Below, piece by piece: positions 1,825 to 23,505 of a stretch of DNA of 32,000 nucleotides (within the stretch, counting starts at the first letter, position 1; each line of letters starts with the position of its first letter). The notes under the pieces were generated by a model. The model ran no database searches. It saw only the letters and a program-made list of their open reading frames with translations, and was not told the DNA's origin. Source of the DNA: an uncultured Candidatus Pelagibacter sp. (lineage in GTDB: Bacteria; Pseudomonadota; Alphaproteobacteria; Pelagibacterales; Pelagibacteraceae). The position numbers and the translations under genes are program-made. Location of the stretch: NCBI GenBank assembly GCA_905612435.1, contig CAJQRZ010000003.1, positions 1 through 32,000 on the forward strand, written 5' to 3'.

Positions 1825-3349
1825 AATGTCTTGTTTTCGAAAATATTAAAACAGTGTTTGTTTGGTTGGCAAATTTTATTATTTCATTATCTCTTATAGA
1901 TCCTGATGGCTGTATAACAGCTGATACGCCAGACTGTACAAGCTTTTCTATCCCATCTACAAATGGGAAAAAAGCATCTGAAGCAGCAACAATATCTTTT
2001 TCTAAATTTTGGAATTTATGCATTTTGTCAATGGCTATTTGACAACTATCAAGCCTGCTAGGTTGACCAGAACCAATTCCTACCGTAGCTTCCTCGCTAG
2101 CGAGAACGATTGCATTTGATTTAACATATCTACACACATTAAATGCAAAAATTAAATTTTTTAATTGAGATTTATTCGGTTTTTTTTTAGAGACAACCTT
2201 AAAGTCTTTAGGAATAAACTTTTTTACATCTTCAGATTGAGCTAAAATAGATTCATTGACAGAATTAAAACTTATTAAATTATTTATAGTAAAATTTGAT
2301 GCATCAATAATTCTTAGATTTTTTTTCTTTTTTAAAATTTTTAATGCGTCATTATTAAAACCATTTCCAATTATTACCTCTAAAAATTTTTTATTTAACT
2401 CTATTGCTAAATTTTTATTGATTTTGTAATTACAGGAAACAATACCTCCAAAAGCACTAATTGGATCACAAGCTAACGCTAACTGGTAACTTTTTAAGTT
2501 ATTTTTATGTATAGAAACTCCACAAGGATTTGAGTGTTTAACTATAACAGTTCCCAAATTATCCGGTAAAGATTTGGAAATAGTTAAAGCTGAAAATATA
2601 TCATTGTAATTATTATAACTAAGTTGTTTACCATTAATTTGTTTAATATTTAGCCTTAAAGTTTTTGAATAAATTGCACTTTCTTGATGTGGATTTTCAC
2701 CATATCTCAATTTTTTAATTAAATTTCCATAAATAATTTTCTTTTTAGGAAAACTATTTTTATTAATTTTATTAAAGTAATTTGAAATAACAGCATCATA
2801 ATATGCTGTCTCAGAAAAAGCTTCTAAAGACATTTTTTCTCTAAATTGTAAGGAAGTACAACCATTATTATGTTTAATTTCATTAATTAACTCTTCGTAT
2901 TGATTAGGAGATGTAATCACAGTTACGTCATTATAATTTTTTGCAGCCGCCCTAACCATTGTTGGTCCACCAACGTCAATATTTTCTATAATTTTTAAAT
3001 GGTTAGTAGTTTTTTCTAAAGTTTTTTCAAAGGGGTAAAAATTAACAATCACTAAGTCAATTTCTTCAAAATTGTTATTTCGCAAGTCTTTTTTGTGGGA
3101 AGCATTGTTTCTTTTGCTTAAAATACCAGCATGTATTTTGGGGTGTAAAGTTTTTATTCTACCACCAAGTATTTCTGGTGAATTTGTATATTCTGAAACT
3201 TCAAGACATTTAAACTTAAGTTTTTTAATTTCTTTATAAGTGCCACCCGAACTGATTAGTTCAATCTTATATTTGGTTAAAATGCTTAAAAGAGCTTTTA
3301 AATTTTCTTTATCTGAAACAGAAATTAAAGCTTTTTTTATTTTTTTCAT
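1814..3349 (-). CDS. purH: bifunctional AICAR transformylase / IMP cyclohydrolase
   Basis: KALISVSDKENL...GGTYK...IKTLHPKIHAGIL...DVGGPTMVRAAAKN...QPSGSIRD are PurH signatures. The start is probably the ATG at 3349 (MKKIKKALISVSDK), which forms a TAATG overlap with the upstream stop; the track start at 3370 adds 7 aa. Confidence 0.95.
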   Translation of the reverse strand: MKKIKKALISVSDKENLKALLSILTKYKIELISSGGTYKEIKKLKFKCLEVSEYTNSPEILGGRIKTLHPKIHAGILSKRNNASHKKDLRNNNFEEIDLVIVNFYPFEKTLEKTTNHLKIIENIDVGGPTMVRAAAKNYNDVTVITSPNQYEELINEIKHNNGCTSLQFREKMSLEAFSETAYYDAVISNYFNKINKNSFPKKKIIYGNLIKKLRYGENPHQESAIYSKTLRLNIKQINGKQLSYNNYNDIFSALTISKSLPDNLGTVIVKHSNPCGVSIHKNNLKSYQLALACDPISAFGGIVSCNYKINKNLAIELNKKFLEVIIGNGFNNDALKILKKKKNLRIIDASNFTINNLISFNSVNESILAQSEDVKKFIPKDFKVVSKKKPNKSQLKNLIFAFNVCRYVKSNAIVLASEEATVGIGSGQPSRLDSCQIAIDKMHKFQNLEKDIVAASDAFFPFVDGIEKLVQSGVSAVIQPSGSIRDNEIIKFANQTNTVLIFSKTRHFKH

Positions 3350-4980
3350 TATAATTTTATTAATTCCCACTTTATAGTCTGGATTTTATTTTGTGTCATT
3401 CCTGAAATAAATATGTTTTGATTTTCTGTATAAGAATTTTTTTTACCAAAATATAGACCGTTATCAATATTAATATCACCTTTGTCACAAGTAAATTTCC
3501 AACCTTCATGATCAAGCTCTATAAGTATTGATTTATTATTCTGGGTTTTCATTACTTTAATGTTTGGCTCTAAATGAAATCTAATTTCAAAATCTATATT
3601 TTTAAAATTATTTTTTGAGATTATTTTATCGTGGCCAATAAATTTTAATTGTTCAGGATAAAACTCAATTTCTCTATCATGAATAATTCCGTATTCTTTT
3701 ATATAACCATCATGTGCAGCATTTATTTTCCAATAATTTTTTTCAAATACAATATTTTTTTTTGTTATCTTTAAACCCTGTAAAACTTTGGAATTTAAAT
3801 TTGATGTTTTGGTAAATTTACATGAAGATCTATTATCTAATATTAGAGTGCTATGTACAGCGCTTGACTTTGATAGTTCATTTAATTGATGGTTAAAATT
3901 TTGAAAATAACCAGAATTACAAATTAATTTTTTACCATTAGATATAATTTCAAAAGATAGTGCACCAGATTGGTAGTTTGAAGAAAATTTTTTTTCAGGA
4001 CTTGAACCAATATCCATTATAAGTGACATCTTTTTATTATTCAAAATTGCATATCCACCTATTTCATTATTTTGATTTTTAAATTTATATCCTAATCTTT
4101 CTAAATAATAGTCAAATTCAGAATTGTTTGTTTCTTGATTTCCATTGAATAAAATATTTTTTTTGTTTTTTTGCCAAATAAAAGTGTAGGCTTGACCCAA
4201 GTAATATATGATCTCATCAATATATTCTGGTATTTCACTTTGAGATTCCTTAAGCCACTCTCTTATTAAGATAAAGTATTTTAAATAAAAGTTTAATTGT
4301 CTAATATTTCTTGATTTAGGAAAGCCATCATTATCAAAAGAAAATTTTATTATTTTTTTTAATAAATTTAGACCAGAATTTAAATAACCATCTTTGTCTT
4401 GATAGGACAAACCAGTCAAAATAATTGCTGCACATCCTATCATTTTATCATCAACCCACTCAGATTTTTCTATTTCATTAATTAGGTGATTAATTTGTTT
4501 TTGAATAGTATGATTAAATTTTTTCTTATAATTTGAATTTCCATCTTCGTAAGTAAGTTTGGAGTTTGAAAGCCAAGCAATTATTCTTTTTGAAATAATG
4601 TCTATCTCCCAACTTTTAGGATTGTATCTATTATTTGCTTCCATCCAGTTTAAAATTATATTCTGTGTATCTTTTTTTGATGATTTTAAATCCAAACTAA
4701 ATAACCAAAAAAAACTGTGGAGATTTTTATAATCTTTTTCTTTTAAGTTTTTATTATTCCATATTGTATTTAGTGAATAGTTTTCAATTTTAATTTTTTT
4801 TTTATTATATTTTATTAAACAATCTAATAGACTCGTGCTAGGTTTATATTCAAAAGTATAATCTTTAGTTAAAGAAATTTTTTTATTATAAATTTTGGAA
4901 TTTAAATAGAGTATCCGTATTTTTTTTATAAATAGCAAAAAAAAATTATTTACATGATTTAATAGATTTTTAAAAATCAT
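3349..4980 (-). CDS. heparinase II/III-like family protein (function unknown in this context)
   Basis: 543 aa. YQSGALSFEIISNGKKLICNSGY resembles the xxALSFExxxxGxxLIxNxG segment of heparinase II/III-like proteins. From memory, a gene of this family is conserved between rpe and purH in alphaproteobacteria. Confidence 0.55.
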   Translation of the reverse strand: MIFKNLLNHVNNFFLLFIKKIRILYLNSKIYNKKISLTKDYTFEYKPSTSLLDCLIKYNKKKIKIENYSLNTIWNNKNLKEKDYKNLHSFFWLFSLDLKSSKKDTQNIILNWMEANNRYNPKSWEIDIISKRIIAWLSNSKLTYEDGNSNYKKKFNHTIQKQINHLINEIEKSEWVDDKMIGCAAIILTGLSYQDKDGYLNSGLNLLKKIIKFSFDNDGFPKSRNIRQLNFYLKYFILIREWLKESQSEIPEYIDEIIYYLGQAYTFIWQKNKKNILFNGNQETNNSEFDYYLERLGYKFKNQNNEIGGYAILNNKKMSLIMDIGSSPEKKFSSNYQSGALSFEIISNGKKLICNSGYFQNFNHQLNELSKSSAVHSTLILDNRSSCKFTKTSNLNSKVLQGLKITKKNIVFEKNYWKINAAHDGYIKEYGIIHDREIEFYPEQLKFIGHDKIISKNNFKNIDFEIRFHLEPNIKVMKTQNNKSILIELDHEGWKFTCDKGDINIDNGLYFGKKNSYTENQNIFISGMTQNKIQTIKWELIKL

Positions 4981-10940: not shown

Positions 10941-11354
10941 TTAAATACTACTCATCTTATTTAAAATTTTCCAGCTTTTAGAGTCAATAGGCATAACTGA
11001 TAATCTGCTTTGTTTAATAAGTGATAAATGGCTTAAAGCCTTATCTTTTCTGATATCTTTGAGCGTTACAGGTTTTATAAGTTTTTCTTTAAACTTAACT
11101 TGAACAGCCACAAATCTACCATCCTTGTCTGTTTTATCTAAAAAAGCTTCTTTAATCACCTCAACTATACCAACAATTTCTTTCCCGATATTTGAATGAT
11201 AAAAAAAACAAAGATCTCCTTTTTCCATAATTCTTAAATTTTTTGCCGCTTGGTAGTTTCTTACTCCATCCCAAGGAGCACCTTTTGCCCCTACTTTTTT
11301 TTGTTGATCAATAGACCAAACATCAGGCTCAGATTTCATTAACCAGTAGTTCAT
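10941..11354 (-). CDS. EVE (PUA-like, DUF55) domain protein
   Basis: [17 protein letters not shown]...[28 protein letters not shown] is the typical EVE-domain N-terminus. There are only 13 nt to the acs start, so the two are probably co-transcribed. Confidence 0.85.
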
Positions 11355-11425
11355 CTAATTGTTTTTCTTACAGGTCTCCATAATTTATTTTAGCACTTTT
11401 ATTTTACGCTATTTTTACAAAACAC

Positions 11426-11448
11426 GTACCCCACAAAGTACCCCGCAT
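11426..11448. repeat. paired-heptamer site A: GTACCCC-acaaa-GTACCCC-gCAT
   Basis: Read directly from the sequence. It starts 72 nt upstream of the EVE start codon. Confidence 0.6.
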
Positions 11449-11580
11449 TTTTTTTAATATCTAACATTATCTGTTAACGAGAAAAAATATCGCGACAATT
11501 ATTCGCTACATTTACACCTATATTGAACAGAGAGTATCTTTTTTTTAGGGTTTTTTAATATAGGTTCTCGATTTAAAAAT

Positions 11581-11727
11581 ATGAAAAATTTTATCAAAAA
11601 AATTACTATCTTATATCTATGGGTATTATTTATACCAATAGGACTAATACTTAAATCAATATTATTTTTGAGTAAAATACTTAAGAAACTCATTTTATTT
11701 ACTACAAAAAAAGCCAATAGTTTTTAA
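11581..11727 (+). CDS. possible 48-aa hydrophobic mini-protein (MKNFIKKITILYLWVLFIPIGLILKSILFLSKILKKLILFTTKKANSF)
   Basis: ATG-initiated ORF below the track cutoff, with one predicted TM segment flanked by Lys. No SD and no homology recognised. It overlaps the track ORF 11499-11717 on the opposite strand. Confidence 0.25.
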   Translation: MKNFIKKITILYLWVLFIPIGLILKSILFLSKILKKLILFTTKKANSF

Positions 11728-11758
11728 GCTTGTTTATTTAGTGTGCATCGTTAAATCG

Positions 11759-11781
11759 GTACCCCACTACGTACCCCTCAT
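11759..11781. repeat. paired-heptamer site B: GTACCCC-actac-GTACCCC-tCAT
   Basis: Read directly from the sequence. It has the same 7-N5-7-NCAT architecture and orientation as sites A and C. Confidence 0.6.
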
Positions 11782-11857
11782 TTACACTTATTAATAAGCT
11801 TTAATCAAGATTTGTACTGGGAAAATAAGATAAAGGTTGGTGGGAGTCAGTGGAGCC

Positions 11858-11902
11858 TTATCGATGTACTACAAGCTTTGGTTTCATTAACCAGTACTGC
11901 AT
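11858..11902 (-). pseudogene. remnant of an EVE-gene 5' end (MQYWLMKPKLVVHR*)
   Basis: ATG-CAG-TAC-TGG-TTA-ATG-AAA parallels MNYWLMK of the intact gene. A 15-nt identical core (tttcattaaccagta) occurs at 11882-11896 and 11334-11348. The frame stops after 14 codons, and similarity to the gene body ends at the core. Confidence 0.5.
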
Positions 11903-11998
11903 CTATTTGTTTCTCCAGTGTTTACTTATCTTTTTGAACATAGCACTTTCATAATACACCATTTTTAGCAAACACGTGACATGTCAAGTGACATACAT
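11882..11998 (-). repeat. diverged duplicate of the EVE start codon plus ~95 bp upstream region (partner 11334-11448)
   Basis: Hand alignment shows a 15/15 core. The last 35 nt before the heptamer site match 28/35 (tagcactttt...aaaacac vs tagcactttc...caaacac). Core-to-heptamer spacing is nearly the same (77 vs 79 nt). Confidence 0.6.
11976..11998. repeat. paired-heptamer site C: GTGACAT-gtcaa-GTGACAT-aCAT
   Basis: Read directly from the sequence. It occupies the position in the duplicate that corresponds to site A, but both heptamers carry the same different sequence. Confidence 0.6.
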
Positions 11999-12017
11999 AT
12001 CCAAGTCTCGTTGTGTT

Positions 12018-12028
12018 TACTGGTTAAT
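12018..12028 (+). repeat. inverted third copy of the 11-bp core ATTAACCAGTA
   Basis: tactggttaat is the exact reverse complement of attaaccagta (11338-11348 and 11886-11896). On the plus strand it reads YWLIK. Confidence 0.5.
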
Positions 12029-12185
12029 AAAAGAAATTAGCTTACATTCTTCCAATCCTCTGGTCCAATTTATTTAATATCTTTATCTTTTTCAAGAAAA
12101 GAAAATTCTATCCCATATAAATTTGAAATACGACCAGTAATTTTTTTAAATATACAAAATAACAAAATGTTATTAAGTTTATATT

Positions 12186-13451
12186 ATGAAAAAAAAATGG
12201 ATAATAATTATTTTGATAATCATTATTTTAGCAATATTATTGTCATTTTTTTCTGTTCTGTTTTTAAAAAAAGCAAGAGAAACTAGATCTTGGCCATTTG
12301 CTTCAGGATTATCTTTTAAATTACCGTCAGTCGTGAAATATTATGCTTATAAATTCACAAATCCCGAGTCTTTAACAATAGAGACACACTTATATGAAAT
12401 AAATACAGAATTTTTATCGATACCTGATCAGGAAGCAACAGGTAGTGGTGGAAGTGTAAATATTCTTAATAAAGATAATTTACTTATTACATTAGATAAT
12501 GGAAATAACTGGATATTAAATCTTGCAACCAAAAATTTTGTAAAAGGGCCTGATATTTTTTCTAATAAATTTTTAAGCATAAGGGATGTAAATATTTTCC
12601 CTGAAAAAAAAGAGATCGCACTTTTAGTGGGTGAAAATAATAATAACTGTAAAATCATGAAGTTAAAAATTTATGATTTCAGCTTTTTAGAAAAAAAATT
12701 AGAAATAGATAATGACAGAACTTTGTGGAAGTCTGAAAAAATGTGTGAAGAAGATTTTAACCCATTGATTAACAATGGGGGGGGTAGAGTAATATTTTAT
12801 AAAAATAGTTATTTTATATCAATTGGTTTTTTAGCCCAAAATATCGAATCTGGTGTTTATAATCCTTTTCCTCAGAATCCAAATAGCTCATTCGGAAAAA
12901 TTATAAGAATATTTGATGAAAATAATAGTGAGATTTACTCTATTGGCCATAGAAATCCACAAGGTCTTTTTGTTAGGCAAAAAAATGATTTACTAATTTC
13001 AACAGAACATGGCCCCAGAGGTGGTGATGAAATAAATTTGATTACTAAAAATTCAAATTATGGTTGGCCGTGCAAGTCAATCGGGACATTGTATTCTTAT
13101 GACCTGAAGAATGACTCGAAGCTATGGCCAGATGATTTACAAAACTATGGCTGTGTAGATAATAAGTTATTTATTGATCCATTGTATTCTTGGACTCCTT
13201 CAATTGGTGCATCACAGGGTCTGGAATATAAAGGAGATGAATTTTCTAAAATGAAAGATAATTTAATTATATCATCCTTAATAGGAGAATCGTTATTTAG
13301 AGTTAATTTATCAGATAACAATAATGTAATTAACGTTGAAACAATTAGAATTAATGAAAGAATAAGAGACTTAACAGAATCTCCTGACGGTAAAATTGTG
13401 TTATATACTGATGGAGGAAGTTTAATTTTTTTATCAGATAATAATAAATAA
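12186..13451 (+). CDS. PQQ-dependent sugar (glucose/sorbosone) dehydrogenase-like beta-propeller, N-terminal membrane anchor
   Basis: YSIGHRNPQGLFV...STEHGPRGGDEINLITKNSNYGWP is the signature region of the soluble GDH/sorbosone dehydrogenase family. The N-terminus WIIIILIIIILAILLSFFSVLFL is a TM segment. Confidence 0.8.
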   Translation: MKKKWIIIILIIIILAILLSFFSVLFLKKARETRSWPFASGLSFKLPSVVKYYAYKFTNPESLTIETHLYEINTEFLSIPDQEATGSGGSVNILNKDNLLITLDNGNNWILNLATKNFVKGPDIFSNKFLSIRDVNIFPEKKEIALLVGENNNNCKIMKLKIYDFSFLEKKLEIDNDRTLWKSEKMCEEDFNPLINNGGGRVIFYKNSYFISIGFLAQNIESGVYNPFPQNPNSSFGKIIRIFDENNSEIYSIGHRNPQGLFVRQKNDLLISTEHGPRGGDEINLITKNSNYGWPCKSIGTLYSYDLKNDSKLWPDDLQNYGCVDNKLFIDPLYSWTPSIGASQGLEYKGDEFSKMKDNLIISSLIGESLFRVNLSDNNNVINVETIRINERIRDLTESPDGKIVLYTDGGSLIFLSDNNK

Positions 13452-13532
13452 ATTAAGACTATACTATTTTTTCACAATTTTAATTTAGATCTTCATTATT
13501 CCAGGTAAATAAATTGGCATCAAAAGGTATAT

Positions 13533-14837
13533 TTAACCTTCTGGAATTAAATTAATAATTTTTTTAATTGGAATAATTTTATTTTCGATTTCAAAAGATC
13601 TTCCATTTTCTAAAATCTTCTTTGCAACCAATTCCATTGCTGGATACGCAGCTCTTAATAGTTGGTTTGCATAAATTACAATTTTAAATCCATTTTTAAT
13701 AAGATCTTTTTCAAAAACTTTGGAATATGTGGATGGTACTGCAACTAATGGAATAAAATTTTTACTTTTTTTAAAAATTTTAGAAAATGAGAAAATTTCT
13801 TTAGGTGTATTTTCTTTGCTATGAATTAAAATTGCATCTGCTCCTGCTTTAGAATAAATTTCGGCTCTTTTAAGAGCGTCATTTAAGCCTTTTCCCAATA
13901 TAAAACTTTCTACTCTTGCAATAACTAAAAAATCACTTGATTGTCTAGACGAACAAACCTTCTTTATTTTTTTTGCAAATAAACTAGGCTTGTCTTGAGA
14001 GGCACCACTTTGGTTTTTAAATAAAGAGTTTTTTTTTAAACCTATTTTGTCTTCCATAATCATTGCTGAGACACCAGATCTTTCTAAAGATTTTACTAAA
14101 AATGATAAATGTTCTATTTGACCACCATTATCTGCATCAAAAACTAATGGTTTAGTTGTTACATCCATAATGTCATTTACTGAAGAAATACGAGATGAAA
14201 AGTCCAAGGATGAGTTGTCAGGCTTACCTTTTGTTGCTGAGTCTGTAAGGCTTGATGACCACATTCCATCATACTCAATATCTATATTTTTTTTATTTAT
14301 TTTTAAATTTTCAATAATTAATCCTGTTAACGAATTATGAGACTCAAGTAATCTGATAATTTTCTTTGAAAATAGTAATCTTTTTAATCGTGATACCCGG
14401 TTTTCTGGCAATGTACCAACTTCTAAGATTTTTTTTTTAATTAGTGTGGATGAAATATTTTTTGTATATTTTGGCTCAATTAGTTTGCCAGACCATTTTC
14501 TTAAAATTTTAATTACTCTTTCTCTAGTTTTTTTTTGAGGTCCCTTTTTCCAGTCATCACCATGAATTACAAAATCTGGTTTGATAAGATTTAAATTACT
14601 AACGTAGTCCAAAGTTTCTTGTTTAATAACACTTTTAACATATTTAATGTTTTGAATAATAATTTTTCTTCTTTTATAGTCTAAATAAGGAATATTTTTA
14701 TATGAAGCAATTGCTTCGTCAGTCAATAAACCAACTATTACATCACCAAATGTACTCGCTTTTTTTAAAATACTAATATGACCTTCATGAATGATATCAG
14801 CAGCAAGACCGATATATACTTTTTTTCTAATTTTCAT
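13533..14837 (-). CDS. pepM: fusion protein: N-terminal cytidylyltransferase domain + C-terminal phosphoenolpyruvate phosphomutase
   Basis: The N-terminus GLAADIIHEGHISILKKA (HxGH) and KNISST resemble TagD/ECT-type cytidylyltransferases. The C-terminal ICL/PEPM-fold region has LESHNSLTGLIIE, FDADNGG and MEDKIGLKKNS, i.e. the PepM-diagnostic EDK-X5-NS motif. Confidence 0.85.
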   Translation of the reverse strand: MKIRKKVYIGLAADIIHEGHISILKKASTFGDVIVGLLTDEAIASYKNIPYLDYKRRKIIIQNIKYVKSVIKQETLDYVSNLNLIKPDFVIHGDDWKKGPQKKTRERVIKILRKWSGKLIEPKYTKNISSTLIKKKILEVGTLPENRVSRLKRLLFSKKIIRLLESHNSLTGLIIENLKINKKNIDIEYDGMWSSSLTDSATKGKPDNSSLDFSSRISSVNDIMDVTTKPLVFDADNGGQIEHLSFLVKSLERSGVSAMIMEDKIGLKKNSLFKNQSGASQDKPSLFAKKIKKVCSSRQSSDFLVIARVESFILGKGLNDALKRAEIYSKAGADAILIHSKENTPKEIFSFSKIFKKSKNFIPLVAVPSTYSKVFEKDLIKNGFKIVIYANQLLRAAYPAMELVAKKILENGRSFEIENKIIPIKKIINLIPEG

Positions 14838-14977
14838 CGTAATTATTTTATATAGAAACTATCCAATGCGTCTATAAAAATTTAAAAAACTTTTTAAGTT
14901 TAAGACCAATAATGTAATTTATTAATATACACACGGTTAAAACTTACTTGTTCTAAATGCAATAAAAGTGTTTTTCA

Positions 14978-16051
14978 TTATAATCTTACTCCAGCGCCTT
15001 TTAAAAAGGCCGCTTCTTCATCCAAGGGCCATCTAGGTTTAGCGGGGTGATCTAATTCACTAAATTGTTTAAGTTTATATTTTTCTAAACCAACCATAGC
15101 AATCATTGCTGCATTATCTCCACATAAATTTATAGGTGGAAAAATAGCATTGAAGTTTTCTTCATTACAAAGCTTTGTTAAAACTTTTCTAATTTTTTTA
15201 TTTGCAGCAACACCACCAGCAACTACAAAGATATTAGCTTTATCTCCATTAATATTTTTAAATTCTTTAAATGCAATTTTGCTTTTTTTATAAAGTATTT
15301 CTTCAACAGTTTTTTGAAAAGAGGCTGCAAGATCATATTTTTCTTGATCTGTTTTTATTTTTTTTACAATTCTAAGTACTGCAGTTTTAAGTCCAGCAAA
15401 AGATAAATTGCACCCACCTTTATGAAAGATTGGTTTTGGTAATTTATATTTATCGGGATCACCTTTTTTGGCGTACTCTTCTATTTGTGGACCACCAGGA
15501 AATTCTATACCAAGCATTTTTGCAGTTTTGTCAAATGCTTCACCAAGGGCATCGTCAATTGTTGTTCCTAATCTTTTATACTCTCCTAATCCTTTAACAC
15601 TTAAAAATTGAGTATGCCCTCCTGAAATTAGAAGTAAGAGATAAGGATAATTTAATTTAGAATTTAATTTTGGGCTTAGTGCGTGACCTTCTAAATGATT
15701 TACTGCAATAAATGGTTTATTTAGAGAGGATGCCATTGCTTTTCCAAAACTCAAACCAACTGATAAACAAACGATAAGACCGGGACCTGCGGTAGCTGCA
15801 ATTGCATCTACATCATCTAGCATGATGCCACTTTTATCAATTGCTTTTTTGGTAATTAAATCAATTTTTTCTATATGAGATCTTGCAGCAAGTTCTGGAA
15901 CAACTCCACCAAACTCCTTATGAACATCAACTTGGCTTGAAACGATACTAGATAAAATTGTTGGAGTGCCTTGTTCATTTTCAGTAATTATTGATGCAGC
16001 TGTTTCATCACAACTTGATTCAATTCCCAAAATTATAGGTTTTTTGCTCAT
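14978..16051 (-). CDS. tsaD: tRNA N6-adenosine threonylcarbamoyltransferase
   Basis: ILGIESSCDETAASI, NHLEGHALSP, LLLISGGHTQ and VAGGVAAN are Kae1/TsaD motifs. Confidence 0.95.
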   Translation of the reverse strand: MSKKPIILGIESSCDETAASIITENEQGTPTILSSIVSSQVDVHKEFGGVVPELAARSHIEKIDLITKKAIDKSGIMLDDVDAIAATAGPGLIVCLSVGLSFGKAMASSLNKPFIAVNHLEGHALSPKLNSKLNYPYLLLLISGGHTQFLSVKGLGEYKRLGTTIDDALGEAFDKTAKMLGIEFPGGPQIEEYAKKGDPDKYKLPKPIFHKGGCNLSFAGLKTAVLRIVKKIKTDQEKYDLAASFQKTVEEILYKKSKIAFKEFKNINGDKANIFVVAGGVAANKKIRKVLTKLCNEENFNAIFPPINLCGDNAAMIAMVGLEKYKLKQFSELDHPAKPRWPLDEEAAFLKGAGVRL

Positions 16052-20641: not shown

Positions 20642-22411
20642 ATGCAGGATAAAAAATACATTAAGACCTTTAAATTATTGCTCCCTTATTTATGGCCTAA
20701 AAAAAGAAATGATTTAAAAACAAGAGTTAGTTTTGCTGTTGTTGCTTTAGTTTTGGCAAAAATAGCAAGTGTTAGTACACCCCTAGTATTGGGAGGAGCA
20801 GTAAATTCTCTAACAAAATTAAGCTCTGGTATTAATCTATTTATGTTAGTTCCTGTTGCTTTAATAGTTGGTTACGGTGCAGCAAGAATAATTTCTTTTA
20901 CATTTGTTGCAGTGAGAGATGCATTATTTTCAAAAGTTTCTCAACATTCTATCAGACAAATATCTTTAAATATGTTTAAACATTTACACAACCTTTCATT
21001 ACAATTTCATTTAAATAGACAAACTGGTGCACTTGCAAAATATATAGACAGAGGAACCAAGGGAATAGATTTTCTTTTAAGATACGTTTTATTTAATGTT
21101 GTTCCTACTTTTTTTGAGATTTTTTTAGTTTCTGGAATCTTATTTTATTTATATGGTCCGTGGTATGCCGTTGTAACACTTACAACAATTGGTCTTTACT
21201 CTTACTTATCCTTTCAAATAACTGAATGGAGAAATGCATTTAGAAAAAGAATGAATCAGGCTGATAACGACATCAGTACAAAAATGATTGATAGTTTATT
21301 AAATTTTGAAACAGTTAAGTATTTTAACAATGAAAATTATGAATTTAATAGACTTGATAAATCTTTAGAAGAATATGAATTAGCAGCAAATCAAAGTAGG
21401 CATTCGCTTTCATTATTAAACATAGCACAAACATTTATTATAATGTTTGGTATTACTATTATGTTGGTAATGTCAGCCTATGGTATTAAAAATGGAGACA
21501 TCGATGTTGGAGGGTTTGTTGTCATTAATGCATATATGCTTCAATTATATCAACCGTTAAATTTTTTAGGTTCTGTATATAGAGAGATTAGACAAGCATT
21601 AACGGATATGGAAAATATGTTTAGTTTATTAGAAGTATCTCAAGTATCAAAGGATGACCTTAAAGATATGCCCCAAAGTAATGTTGCTGAGATTAGATTT
21701 GATAAGGTTAGTTTTGATTATGATATAAGAAGAACTATAATTAAAAATATTTCTTTTACCGTACCTAATGGGAAAAAAGTTGCAATAGTTGGTCCTACTG
21801 GTGCAGGAAAATCAACAATAAGTAGATTATTATTTAAGTTTTATGACCCAAAAGAAGGAGGTATTTATATTAATAATATAAATATAAATAAAATTTCTCA
21901 AGAATCGTTGAGAAAAATGATTGGTGTAGTTCCCCAGGATACAGTCTTATTTAATGACACAATTTATTATAACATCGCTTACGGAAACACAGATGCCAAG
22001 AAAGAAGAAGTTATTAGAGCCGCTAAAAATGCTGACATACATAATTTCATTTCAACTTTGCCAGATGGTTATGAAACAATTGTAGGTGAGAGAGGACTAA
22101 AGTTATCAGGGGGAGAGAAGCAAAGAGTTGCCATTGCAAGAACTATTTTAAAAAACCCAAAAATATTTTTCTTTGATGAAGCAACTTCTGCACTAGATAG
22201 TAGTACAGAAAAAGAAATTCAAAAAAATTTAGAAAATGTATCGAAGGACAAAACAACTTTAATAATTGCACATCGTTTATCTACCGCCGCAAATGCAGAC
22301 AATATTATTGTGCTTGATAAAGGAGTAATTATTGAGCAAGGAACGCATGAAAGTTTGTTATTAAAAAAAGGCAAATACTTTGAAATGTGGGAAAAACAAA
22401 AGCCTAATTAG
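20642..22411 (+). CDS. ABC transporter, fused permease/ATPase, Atm1/ABCB7-type exporter
   Basis: Six-TM N-terminal half plus an NBD with GPTGAGKST (Walker A), LSGGEKQRVAIAR (signature) and IFFFDEATSALD (Walker B). Overall layout and length match alphaproteobacterial Atm1 homologues. Confidence 0.85.
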   Translation: MQDKKYIKTFKLLLPYLWPKKRNDLKTRVSFAVVALVLAKIASVSTPLVLGGAVNSLTKLSSGINLFMLVPVALIVGYGAARIISFTFVAVRDALFSKVSQHSIRQISLNMFKHLHNLSLQFHLNRQTGALAKYIDRGTKGIDFLLRYVLFNVVPTFFEIFLVSGILFYLYGPWYAVVTLTTIGLYSYLSFQITEWRNAFRKRMNQADNDISTKMIDSLLNFETVKYFNNENYEFNRLDKSLEEYELAANQSRHSLSLLNIAQTFIIMFGITIMLVMSAYGIKNGDIDVGGFVVINAYMLQLYQPLNFLGSVYREIRQALTDMENMFSLLEVSQVSKDDLKDMPQSNVAEIRFDKVSFDYDIRRTIIKNISFTVPNGKKVAIVGPTGAGKSTISRLLFKFYDPKEGGIYINNININKISQESLRKMIGVVPQDTVLFNDTIYYNIAYGNTDAKKEEVIRAAKNADIHNFISTLPDGYETIVGERGLKLSGGEKQRVAIARTILKNPKIFFFDEATSALDSSTEKEIQKNLENVSKDKTTLIIAHRLSTAANADNIIVLDKGVIIEQGTHESLLLKKGKYFEMWEKQKPN

Positions 22412-23505
22412 AATATTTTTTCCATCAGCCAAAGTGCGTCTTCACTTAAAAAATATATTTTACCTGTTAACGGATGAACCTGAATATCCCTTATCCTTCC
22501 AATTTTGCCCTTAAAAATTATATCTTCTTGAATATTTGATAGATCATTAAATATTAATTTTCTTAAAGATTTATCTTTTAAAGAAGTAATTAGCGCGTGC
22601 CCATTCCATTCTTTAAATTCGTTCCCTTTATAAATTGTAATAGAACTAGTAGCTATTGAAGGTACCCAATATTGAATTCCTTTAGTAAACCCTGGCTTCC
22701 ATTTGGGACCTATCTTGGTTCCTGAATAATTTTTTCCACCCCAGCCTAAAATTTTCCATCCATAATTTTCTCCTTTTTTAGCCTCTCCAAACCAATCACC
22801 GCCTCTTGCTCCATGATTACTTAAATATATTTTTCCATCATAATCGGAGAGTGTTAAACCTTGTGGATTACGAACACCTATTTGATAAATTTCAGGTAAC
22901 CAGTTTTTCTTACCTTCAAATTTTGGATTATCTTTTGGAATACTACCGTCAGTATGAATTCTAATAATACTACCAGGATGTTTTGTGGGATCTTGAGCAA
23001 TCATACCTTGGCCTCTTTCACCAGCTGATGCGTAAAGATAATCACCCTTAATTGCCAATCTTGAACCAAAATGATAACCAGAGTCTATAGGAGGGTTTGC
23101 TTGAAAAATATTTTTAAAATTTAATTCTTGTTTATTTAATTGTGCTTTTGCAATTGACGTGCTTGTTTTCGAATCCCCTCTATTTTCTGAATAAGAAATC
23201 CATAAGGTACTATCTTGGTGAATAATATCTAATAATCCACCTTGACCGACTTCTAAAAAATTAAGATTATGTTTAATCTCTGAAATATTTTTTGAAACAA
23301 CATTAACGATTTTAATTTTTCCACTTTTTTCAGTAATAATAATTTCATTATTGTTAATAAATGATGATCCCCAAGGTTCATCTAGTTCTATTATTTTAGT
23401 GAATATGTAATTGTTAGAATAGTTTTTTGAAGTAAATAAAAGAAAAAAAATTATTAATAAAAAATATTTTTTCACCTTAAGAAAGTTTTGATCTACCACC
23501 ATCAA
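22408..23505 (-). CDS. PQQ-dependent sugar dehydrogenase-like beta-propeller (YliI/sorbosone dehydrogenase family), secreted
   Basis: IGVRNPQGLTLSDYDGKIYLSNHGARGGDWFGEAKKGENYGW is the family signature, with a signal-like N-terminus. An alternative GTG start at 23475 (VKKYFLLIIFF) would remove the 29-nt overlap with the SDR gene. Confidence 0.8.
   Translation of the reverse strand: MMVVDQNFLKVKKYFLLIIFFLLFTSKNYSNNYIFTKIIELDEPWGSSFINNNEIIITEKSGKIKIVNVVSKNISEIKHNLNFLEVGQGGLLDIIHQDSTLWISYSENRGDSKTSTSIAKAQLNKQELNFKNIFQANPPIDSGYHFGSRLAIKGDYLYASAGERGQGMIAQDPTKHPGSIIRIHTDGSIPKDNPKFEGKKNWLPEIYQIGVRNPQGLTLSDYDGKIYLSNHGARGGDWFGEAKKGENYGWKILGWGGKNYSGTKIGPKWKPGFTKGIQYWVPSIATSSITIYKGNEFKEWNGHALITSLKDKSLRKLIFNDLSNIQEDIIFKGKIGRIRDIQVHPLTGKIYFLSEDALWLMEKIF

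What the first reader, a model, noticed from the sequence alone, without database searches (positions are those of the whole stretch)
13533..14837. Cytidylyltransferase-PEP mutase fusion standing alone, with no phosphonopyruvate decarboxylase nearby
The C-terminal domain carries the EDK-X5-NS motif (EDKIGLKKNS) that distinguishes PEP phosphomutase from other ICL/PEPM-fold enzymes. This indicates C-P bond (phosphonate) biosynthesis. PepM equilibrium strongly favours PEP, and the gene is normally clustered with a coupling enzyme (Ppd or equivalent) and tailoring genes. Here the neighbours are a membrane-anchored PQQ-type dehydrogenase, tsaD and the recombination-scarred gap, with no ppd or aminotransferase in the window. 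The N-terminal HxGH cytidylyltransferase suggests the phosphonate is CMP-activated for attachment to a glycan or lipid. Phosphonate production by some SAR11 and Prochlorococcus is known, but a solitary fused gene raises the question of which enzyme pulls the reaction.
Basis: partly seen in the sequence, partly recalled or inferred. Interest (0 to 1): 0.6.

Follow-up and report, generated by a model that had tools for sequence, protein, structure and literature searches.

The report
Lone Fom1-type PEP mutase gene in SAR11
This Pelagibacter (SAR11) gene is an intact, well-known type of two-domain enzyme that makes the carbon-phosphorus bond and CMP-activates a phosphonate, but unusually it sits alone in a tiny variable islet, and the decarboxylase that normally drives the reaction is missing from the 71%-complete assembly.

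Summary
ORF 13533-14837 (-) encodes a 434-aa protein with an N-terminal HxGH cytidylyltransferase and a C-terminal PEP mutase. The mutase scores 359 bits against TIGR02320 (cut-off 319.6) and carries EDKIGLKKNS. The architecture is not new: the N-domain is about 54% identical to the solved Fom1 cytidylyltransferase domain, and PF01467-Ppm fusions make up 23.6% of known Ppm.

The context is unusual. In three complete congeners, tsaD abuts the EVE gene. Here a 3.6-kb islet lies between them, made of pepM, a GSDH paralogue and a scarred gap. Independent metagenome contigs carry the identical pepM next to tsaD, followed by different cargo or directly by EVE, and never by ppd.

In sampled relatives, 26/26 (family) and 39/40 (genus) pepM-bearing genomes have ppd, almost always adjacent. 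G000 has none, but it is only 71.5% complete and its hypervariable region is fragmented.

The tsaD-linked clade is under strong purifying selection (dN/dS about 0.09; PepM domain 0.07), so the gene is functional. Most likely the partner genes lie in unassembled DNA. An unknown coupling enzyme or a different role is not excluded.

Verdict: a new member of a known kind, of moderate interest.

The parts
13533..14837 (-). Fom1-type bifunctional gene: cytidylyltransferase + PEP phosphomutase, 434 aa (P0001)
   Evidence: TIGR02320 scores 359 bits (cut-off 319.55). The identical protein occurs on 5+ independent metagenome contigs.
14418..14828 (-). N-terminal cytidylyltransferase domain (residues 4-140). 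HEGH motif at nt 14778-14789, ISST at 14445-14456.
   Evidence: phmmer E = 1.5e-48 to PDB 5x3d (Fom1 CyTase domain), 74/137 identical as counted in the printed alignment. PF01467 scores 48.8 bits. Motif positions.
13539..14399 (-). C-terminal PEP mutase domain (residues 147-433). EDKIGLKKNS at nt 14025-14054, DADNG at 14124-14138, ARVE at 13908-13919, IHSK at 13815-13826.
   Evidence: Aligned over its full length to Mytilus PEP mutase 1m1b (E = 9.6e-43) with the metal-binding and catalytic motifs conserved. Motif positions.
14838..14977 (-). 140-nt tsaD-pepM spacer, probably carrying pepM's own promoter and RBS
   Evidence: 131/140 identical between the window and L033, although the flanking genes differ at dS 0.2-0.39. 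Promoter-like hexamers are present but not above chance.
13466..13532 (-). 67-nt 3' flank of pepM shared by all variants; the variable cargo starts at about 13466
   Evidence: Alignment of the window, L022 and L025 is identical to this point and then diverges. Logan contigs of four runs end or start at 13466-13472.
12186..13451 (+). Islet cargo: membrane-anchored GSDH-family (PQQ-type) sugar dehydrogenase, convergent with pepM. No evidence links it to phosphonate chemistry.
   Evidence: PF07995 scores 157 bits. It is absent at this site in congeners and about 30% identical to the G023 orthologue of the core GSDH gene at 22408-23505. Coverage is near zero in two runs that do hold pepM.
11355..12185 (.). 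Non-coding recombination scar. It holds a duplicated EVE 5' end plus upstream region (11872-11977, about 82% identical to 11324-11427) and a roughly 500-bp element shared with another islet variant.
   Evidence: Repeat families D1, D2 and D7. Alignment to L032 and L025. No ORF longer than 72 aa. No Rfam or tRNA hit.
10941..11354 (-). EVE-domain gene: the core-genome right border of the islet
   Evidence: PF01878. It lies directly next to tsaD in G008, G023 and G179.
14978..16051 (-). tsaD: the core-genome left border of the islet, co-directional with and upstream of pepM
   Evidence: TIGR03723 scores 413.6 bits. Synteny.

Best explanation
The gene encodes a functional Fom1-type bifunctional enzyme. 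Its C-terminal domain isomerises PEP to phosphonopyruvate. Its N-terminal HxGH domain uses CTP to make a CMP-phosphonate (by homology CMP-2-hydroxyethylphosphonate), an activated donor for decorating a surface glycan or lipid. In this Pelagibacter lineage the gene has been moved, alone, out of the usual SAR11 phosphonate cassette (APS-kinase-like, PhyH, pepM, ppd, Fe-ADH, beside the 23S rRNA or in other islands). It now sits in a small recombination hotspot between tsaD and the EVE gene and has been kept there under purifying selection. The thermodynamic pull (Ppd, then an Fe-ADH) and the transferase are not in the islet. Most probably they are encoded elsewhere, in the fragmented or unassembled hypervariable region of this 71.5%-complete genome. 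Shown: enzyme identity, domain order, intact motifs, islet structure, lack of ppd in the islet and the assembly, and purifying selection. Inferred: substrate (HEP), partners elsewhere, and surface-glycan destination.
For: Identity: (TIGR02320 above cut-off; 5x3d at E = 1.5e-48; 1m1b at E = 9.6e-43 with motifs conserved).

Known architecture: PMC6697681 and PMC8942020.

Relocation:
- tsaD abuts EVE in G008, G023 and G179.
- The tsaD-linked clade is monophyletic (100/100). It is nested among SAR11 sequences whose examined contexts carry ppd+pdh, adjacent or divergently next to pepM.

Selection:
- Window vs L032/L033 gives dS of about 0.20 and omega of about 0.09 (PepM domain 0.07, CyTase 0.14).
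- This equals tsaD (0.09) and is below hemC (0.15) for the same genome pair.
- The 18 clade-fixed substitutions are mostly conservative and none falls in a catalytic motif.

Partners probably elsewhere:
- Ppd is present in 26/26 and 39/40 other pepM genomes.
- G221 shows an unlinked ppd-like gene in the same genus.
- G000 contig C70 (23S rRNA edge) carries an APS-kinase-like gene 45-50% identical to those inside relatives' pepM cassettes. In the family sample that gene co-occurs with pepM in 8 of the 13 other genomes that carry it, against a 13% base rate.
- C70 also carries a putative TagB/F-like transferase. It ends inside a B12-radical-SAM gene, so the region continues beyond the assembly.
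Against: No ppd, PhnW-type transaminase, phosphonatase or LicD was found in 1.107 Mb.

In G008, G179 and G018 the ppd-pepM genes lie between the 23S rRNA and the APS-kinase-like gene. In G000 that slot holds a different gene, so the canonical cassette is not simply unassembled at that spot.

Keeping two unlinked flexible loci together in a highly recombining population is awkward. Yet pepM persists at the tsaD site across lineages whose flanks differ at dS of about 0.38. It appears with at least four different downstream cargoes, including none.

The TagB/F assignment is weak: direct hmmscan and a PDB profile search gave nothing.
Confidence: 0.5

Rival explanations
1. The lineage truly lacks Ppd, and the orphan enzyme works with something else. 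Either a core-genome enzyme consumes phosphonopyruvate (a promiscuous ThDP decarboxylase, a transaminase giving phosphonoalanine, or a 2-hydroxyacid dehydrogenase). Or the mutase runs in its favoured direction (phosphonopyruvate to PEP) as a salvage step, while the CyTase domain handles scavenged phosphonates.
For: No ppd in the assembly. The islet variants never carry ppd. The PepM domain is the more constrained half (omega 0.07), as expected if mutase activity itself is selected in the orphan state. The clade persists at a core-genome site across diverged backgrounds and sits on a comparatively long stem branch (0.15). Other marine pepM loci lack ppd within their flanks: 3 of about 36 with at least 1.5 kb downstream (L074, L084, L091). 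G392 carries a PepM fused to an unknown 370-aa domain, with no ppd found.
Against: The genome is 28.5% incomplete. 64 of 65 other pepM-bearing relatives have ppd. No candidate enzyme was identified; the only ThDP enzymes hit by the Ppd profile are 591- and 605-aa open frames at under 20 bits. No catabolic role of PepM is established in the literature I could read.
Confidence: 0.22
2. The gene is a stranded passenger: it was moved by recombination without its partners, is still intact, but contributes nothing.
For: It sits in a hotspot that collects unrelated cargo: GSDH, an FtsX/ABC/GDSL trio, an unknown 374-aa protein, and in G167 MORN and carbamoyltransferase genes. The islet has 10- to 100-fold lower summed depth than its flanks in four seawater metagenomes, so it is a low-frequency flexible gene.
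Against: Omega is about 0.09 over dS of about 0.2 within the tsaD-linked clade, equal to the essential neighbour tsaD. There are no frameshifts or stops in any of 8 independent copies. The promoter spacer is 94% conserved. Streamlined SAR11 genomes are not expected to keep dead 1.3-kb genes (general knowledge).
Confidence: 0.12
3. The local arrangement in the window (pepM joined to GSDH and the gap) is a metagenome-assembly path through a multi-variant bubble rather than one real haplotype.
For: No Logan contig in four runs bridges position 13466-13472; pieces stop or start there and run on into unlike sequence. The GSDH protein is not on record elsewhere. At least four alternative continuations exist after the shared 67 nt.
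Against: This affects only the cargo downstream of pepM. The tsaD-pepM junction and the absence of ppd between tsaD and EVE are seen independently in L022-L025, L032, L033 and L054. GSDH and pepM have similar depth in runs X1 and X2.
Confidence: 0.1

Closest known systems
Fom1 of Streptomyces wedmorensis (fosfomycin pathway; PDB 5x3d for the CyTase domain)
   Same: Same domain order (N-terminal PF01467 HxGH cytidylyltransferase, C-terminal PEP mutase) and similar size. The N-domain aligns at E = 1.5e-48, about 54% identical, with the HxGH and ISST motifs. Fom1's CyTase makes CMP-HEP (PMC6697681, citing Cho et al. 2017).
   Different: Fom1 sits in an antibiotic cluster with Fom2 (Ppd), FomC (Fe-ADH) and Fom3 (B12 radical SAM). 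Here none of these is at the locus, and the likely end product is a cell-surface decoration, not fosfomycin.
SAR11 / Prochlorococcus pepM cassettes (Acker et al. 2022, PMC8931226)
   Same: Same protein family, 60-87% identical to many Pelagibacter homologues. pepM is a patchy flexible trait: 29/201 family genomes matched the query (27 are true PepM; G074 and G088 are weak paralogue hits), and 41/401 genus genomes carry it.
   Different: Those cassettes carry ppd (and usually an Fe-ADH) adjacent and lie in glycan islands or next to the rRNA operon. The window's gene is alone between two core genes.
PntC/cytidylyltransferase-Ppm fusions (Rice et al. 2019, PMC6697681; Li & Horsman 2022, PMC8942020)
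   Same: It belongs to the 23.6% of Ppm fused to PF01467. Nucleotidyl activation of the phosphonate is the expected next step.
   Different: The characterised PntC enzymes are PF12804 (LicC-like) and prefer AEP. This one is the PF01467 type, whose only characterised fused example uses HEP.
Mytilus edulis PEP mutase (PDB 1m1b, 1pym)
   Same: The catalytic domain aligns end to end (E = 9.6e-43). W-x-S-x-L, D, DAD, EDKxxxKxNS, ARVE and HSK are all conserved.
   Different: The Mytilus enzyme is a single-domain protein.

Membership tests
PEP phosphomutase (TIGR02320, EC 5.4.2.9) | Score above the curated equivalog cut-off and above the sister ICL/PEPM-fold families | tested here: met
   359.2 bits against a cut-off of 319.55. 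PnPy hydrolase 142/374, PrpB 79/354, CPEP mutase 35/420.
PEP phosphomutase (TIGR02320, EC 5.4.2.9) | EDKXXXXXNS motif | tested here: met
   EDKIGLKKNS at residues 262-271. Use of the motif as the discriminator is taken from PMC6697681 and PMC8931226.
PEP phosphomutase (TIGR02320, EC 5.4.2.9) | Metal-binding and catalytic residues of the Mytilus enzyme (Asp58, Asp85/87, Glu114, Lys120, Asn122, Arg159, His190; numbering recalled from memory) | tested here: met
   All the aligned positions are identical in the 1m1b alignment. None of the 18 clade-specific substitutions falls in these motifs.
PEP phosphomutase (TIGR02320, EC 5.4.2.9) | Mutase activity on PEP / phosphonopyruvate | not testable with these tools
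   Needs an enzyme assay.
Fom1-type phosphonate cytidylyltransferase domain (PF01467) | PF01467 above the gathering score, with HxGH and the C-terminal ISST-type motif | tested here: met
   48.8 bits against 21. HEGH at residues 17-20 and ISST at 128-131.
Fom1-type phosphonate cytidylyltransferase domain (PF01467) | Closest solved relative is the Fom1 CyTase domain rather than glycerol-3-phosphate or ethanolamine-phosphate cytidylyltransferases | tested here: met
   5x3d at 169 bits, against 3elb at 58.8 and 1coz at 41.5 bits.
Fom1-type phosphonate cytidylyltransferase domain (PF01467) | Substrate is 2-hydroxyethylphosphonate, supplied by Ppd + Fe-ADH | tested here: not met
   No ppd in the assembly. 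Only generic Fe-ADHs below cut-off. The genome is 71.5% complete, so this is 'not found', not 'absent'. Substrate specificity itself is not testable here.
Canonical SAR11 phosphonate cassette (pepM-ppd-pdh with APS-kinase-like and PhyH genes) | ppd adjacent to, or within a few kb of, pepM | tested here: not met
   None within 13 kb on one side and 97 kb on the other. It is adjacent in nearly all relatives.
Canonical SAR11 phosphonate cassette (pepM-ppd-pdh with APS-kinase-like and PhyH genes) | Location in a glycan or hypervariable island | tested here: not met
   It lies in a 3.6-kb islet between the core genes tsaD and EVE. The 23S-proximal slot on contig C70 lacks pepM and ppd.

The most novel reading that the evidence does not exclude
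A streamlined SAR11 lineage keeps a PEP mutase-cytidylyltransferase under strong purifying selection with no phosphonopyruvate decarboxylase anywhere in its genome. That would mean either an unrecognised (possibly core-genome) enzyme pulls C-P bond formation, or PepM is used in the PnPy-to-PEP direction as a phosphonate salvage step.
Probability: 0.2. Interest if true: 0.7.

Novelty: new member of a known kind. Interest (0 to 1): 0.4.

Why it matters
Surveys of marine phosphonate producers count pepM as a sufficient marker (PMC8931226). If pepM can be kept apart from ppd, or without it, that marker logic and the accepted 'PepM must be coupled to Ppd' rule need a caveat. The lineage would then be a natural system for finding an alternative coupling step. 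If the partners simply lie in unassembled DNA, the locus is an ordinary Fom1-like gene. Its remaining value is as a clear example of how single flexible genes move into small core-genome hotspots in SAR11.

Tried and rejected
(1) 'Cluster broken by assembly' is rejected for the locus. The gene is internal to a 111-kb contig, and other contigs span tsaD-pepM-EVE.

(2) Pseudogene or decay is rejected: the ORF is intact in 8 copies and omega is about 0.09.

(3) Non-PepM ICL-fold enzyme is rejected by profile scores and motif.

(4) GSDH as a coupling partner: no evidence. It is variable cargo and is missing from other variants and from two runs that hold pepM.

(5) I tried to extend G000's hypervariable region through identical or near-identical proteins. 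The APS-kinase-like and GSDH proteins are not on record. The 92-93% relatives of the C70 374-aa protein lie in other HVR variants without pepM or ppd.

(6) The TagB/F assignment of that 374-aa protein has mixed support. Direct Pfam and own-genome HMM searches and a PDB profile search gave nothing. Only precomputed Pfam labels on close relatives and language-model neighbours support it.

(7) The B12 radical-SAM genes on C70 and C7 were tested as Fom3/PhpK-like methyltransferases. Only weak, sub-threshold family hits appeared.

(8) Promoter, terminator, Rfam and tRNA scans of the islet gave nothing above chance.

(9) Transcription: one metatranscriptome holds 6% of the gene's sampled words.

(10) Earlier scan notes: nothing on phosphonates in this genome.

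Full report
**What is there**

The window has about 28% G+C. It is positions 1-32000 of a 111,468-bp contig (C3) of a 1.107-Mb, 73-contig genome estimated 71.5% complete. One close homologue is named 'Candidatus Pelagibacter sp.' by NCBI, so this is a SAR11 genome.

ORF 13533-14837 (-) is open for 434 aa. Its domains are:
- Pfam CTP_transf_like at residues 14-135 and PEP_mutase at 152-409.
- The NCBIfam equivalog TIGR02320 (PEP mutase) at 359.2 bits, against a curated cut-off of 319.55.
- Phosphonopyruvate hydrolase, methylisocitrate lyase and CPEP mutase all fall far below their cut-offs.

EDKIGLKKNS is at residues 262-271 and HEGH at 17-20. Against solved structures:
- The N-terminal 137 residues match the Fom1 cytidylyltransferase domain (5x3d) at E = 1.5e-48. 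I counted 74/137 identities in the printed alignment.
- The C-terminal 284 residues align end to end with Mytilus PEP mutase (1m1b, E = 9.6e-43).
- The DAD, EDK...K.NS, ARVE and HSK motifs are all intact.

**The fusion itself is known**

Rice et al. (PMC6697681) report that 59.5% of motif-bearing Ppm are fused to another domain and that 23.6% are fused to PF01467. Fom1 is the characterised example; its CyTase domain makes CMP-hydroxyethylphosphonate. Li & Horsman (PMC8942020) list the same fusions. JGI already names close homologues 'phosphoenolpyruvate phosphomutase / 2-hydroxyethylphosphonate cytidylyltransferase'. The protein search returned 8000 candidates (its scoring cap), all significant, and the 119 best hits other than the query are 81-98% identical.

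**The context is what is unusual**

In three complete genomes of the same genus (G008, G023, G179), tsaD is followed within a few bases by the EVE-domain gene and then by acs. G167 has an unrelated 4.3-kb insert there, carrying a MORN protein and a carbamoyltransferase.

The window has a 3.6-kb islet at that point:
- pepM;
- a convergent GSDH-family dehydrogenase at 12186-13451;
- an 831-bp ORF-free stretch at 11355-12185.

The ORF-free stretch contains a second, degenerate copy of the EVE start codon region and its upstream sequence (11872-11977, about 82% identical to 11324-11427). It also holds a roughly 500-bp element shared with another islet variant. It is a genuine recombination scar.

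The identical 434-aa protein occurs on independent TARA, ENA and JGI contigs. Where upstream sequence is present, it lies just downstream of tsaD. All copies share 67 nt after the stop codon and then diverge:
- L022-L024 continue into an unknown 374-aa ORF.
- L025 and L054 continue, after about 200 nt, straight into EVE.
- L032 (97% identical protein) carries an FtsX/ABC/GDSL trio before EVE.

No variant carries ppd. pepM alone is the constant element of the islet.

Logan contigs of four seawater runs break at 13466-13472, as expected at a multi-way branch. No independent contig confirms the window's particular pepM-GSDH join. Summed depth over the islet is 10- to 100-fold below that of the flanks, so this is a low-frequency flexible gene.

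**How unusual is the lack of ppd?**

TIGR03297 finds nothing in G000; the best hit is 19.7 bits.
- In a 200-genome sample of the family, 28 other genomes matched the pepM query. Of these, 26 are true PepM (G074 and G088 are weak paralogue hits). All 26 have ppd, nearly always on the same contig within a few kb.
- In a 400-genome sample of the genus, 39 of 40 do.
- The exception, G392, has a 659-aa protein with an unknown N-terminal domain fused to PepM.
- G221 has its ppd-like gene on another contig.
- Among JGI metagenome loci with a full-length homologue and at least 1.5 kb downstream, about 33 of 36 have ppd in the locus, usually about 100 nt downstream. L074, L084 and L091 do not.

The closest characterised contexts (82-87% identical proteins) are compact modules: APS-kinase-like, PhyH, pepM, ppd, Fe-ADH.

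**Is the orphan alive?**

A maximum-likelihood tree puts the tsaD-linked sequences in one clade (100/100). The clade is nested among ppd-linked SAR11 sequences and sits on a 0.15 stem branch.

Within the clade, window vs L032/L033 gives dS of about 0.20 and dN/dS of about 0.09; the PepM domain is at 0.07 and the CyTase domain at 0.14. For the same genome pair, tsaD gives dS 0.39 with omega 0.09, and hemC gives omega 0.15. The orphan is therefore as constrained as its housekeeping neighbours.

The 18 clade-fixed substitutions are mostly conservative and avoid the catalytic motifs. The 140-nt tsaD-pepM spacer is 94% conserved. A dead passenger is unlikely.

**Where could the partners be?**

G000's short contigs are pieces of the SAR11 hypervariable region.
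- C70 runs from the 23S rRNA into a 374-aa protein, an APS-kinase-like gene and a B12-binding radical-SAM gene that is cut by the contig end.
- C25, C28, C7 and C69 are collinear with the glycan genes that flank pepM in L026: NeuB, Epimerase_2, ABC exporter and unknowns.
- The APS-kinase-like gene is 45-50% identical to the one inside relatives' pepM cassettes. In the family sample, 8 of the 13 other genomes that carry it also carry pepM, against a 13% base rate. These genomes are related, so this is only suggestive.
- The 374-aa protein is probably a TagB/F-type CDP-alcohol-phosphate transferase, judging from precomputed Pfam labels on 92-94% identical proteins and from language-model neighbours. 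Direct HMM and PDB-profile searches failed.
- In G008, G179 and G018, ppd-pepM lie exactly between the 23S rRNA and the APS-kinase-like gene. In G000 that slot holds the 374-aa gene instead.
- No PhnW, phosphonatase or LicD was found. Two generic Fe-ADHs are present.

**Verdict**

The enzyme is a new member of a known kind (Fom1-type CyTase-PepM). Its solitary, core-embedded, selectively maintained state is uncommon.
- I put about 0.5 on 'functional, partners elsewhere in unassembled DNA'.
- About 0.2 on a truly Ppd-less use (unknown coupling enzyme, or a reverse/salvage role).
- About 0.1 on a stranded passenger.
- About 0.1 that the specific downstream join is an assembly path. That would not change the main conclusion.

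Noticed in passing
window 11324-11977: The tsaD-EVE junction is an insertion hotspot. The EVE start and upstream region are duplicated (11872-11977 vs 11324-11427, about 82% identical). A 25-nt motif, GTACCCCAC..GTACCCC, recurs at 11426 and 11759. A roughly 500-bp non-coding element is shared with islet variant L032. G167 carries different cargo (MORN, carbamoyltransferase) at the same site.
   Followed up: partly
window 12186-13451 and 22408-23505: Two GSDH-family (PQQ-type) dehydrogenase genes lie 9 kb apart. One is core (conserved in congeners). The other is membrane-anchored islet cargo, about 30% identical to the G023 orthologue of the core gene. The PQQ source in SAR11 was not examined.
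   Followed up: no
L036 (G000 contig C70) 5116-8453; L038 (C7) 2247-4118: Two B12-binding radical-SAM genes lie in hypervariable-region fragments of a SAR11 genome. One is next to the APS-kinase-like gene at the 23S rRNA edge. Both give only weak sub-threshold hits to PhpK/Sden_1168 P-methyltransferase families (48-64 bits).
   Followed up: partly
L043 (G392 contig C20) 3962-5941: A 659-aa protein has an unannotatable N-terminal domain of about 370 aa fused to a PEP mutase domain. No ppd was found in that 67%-complete genome. DegT aminotransferase and ABC exporter genes lie upstream.
   Followed up: partly
L041 (G221 C18) and L042 (G221 C2): A congener has a phosphonolipid-like pepM cluster: CDP-alcohol phosphatidyltransferase, a class-V aminotransferase-like gene, an extra cytidylyltransferase and an Asp/Arg hydroxylase. 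Its ppd-like gene (285 bits, below cut-off) sits on another contig beside asparagine synthase and an NTP-transferase.
   Followed up: partly
L034 8647-9183, L026 6318-6848, L036 6255-6791: An APS-kinase-like P-loop gene is a recurrent first gene of SAR11 pepM cassettes. In the family sample, 8 of the 13 other genomes that carry it also carry pepM, usually within 5 kb. Its role in phosphonate tailoring is unknown.
   Followed up: partly
L040 (G000 contig C25) 1-10826: A nonulosonic-acid-type island piece: AMP-ligase, LuxE, LuxC, FabA, radical SAM-SPASM, SDR, split transketolase, class-III aminotransferase and NeuB. The split transketolase is the only other small ThDP enzyme seen near glycan genes. 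There is no evidence that it acts on phosphonopyruvate.
   Followed up: no
L091 4746-8070: A marine pepM homologue (54% identical) is followed by a methyltransferase, LicD and an NTP-transferase. No ppd lies within 4.7 kb upstream or 4 kb downstream. This is another ppd-unlinked arrangement.
   Followed up: no
window 11300-15100 in runs X1, X2, X5, X6: The EVE and tsaD edges have summed contig depth of hundreds to thousands, while the islet has about 3-50. The pepM islet is therefore carried by a small fraction of the co-occurring SAR11 population (depth caveats as stated by the tool).
   Followed up: no
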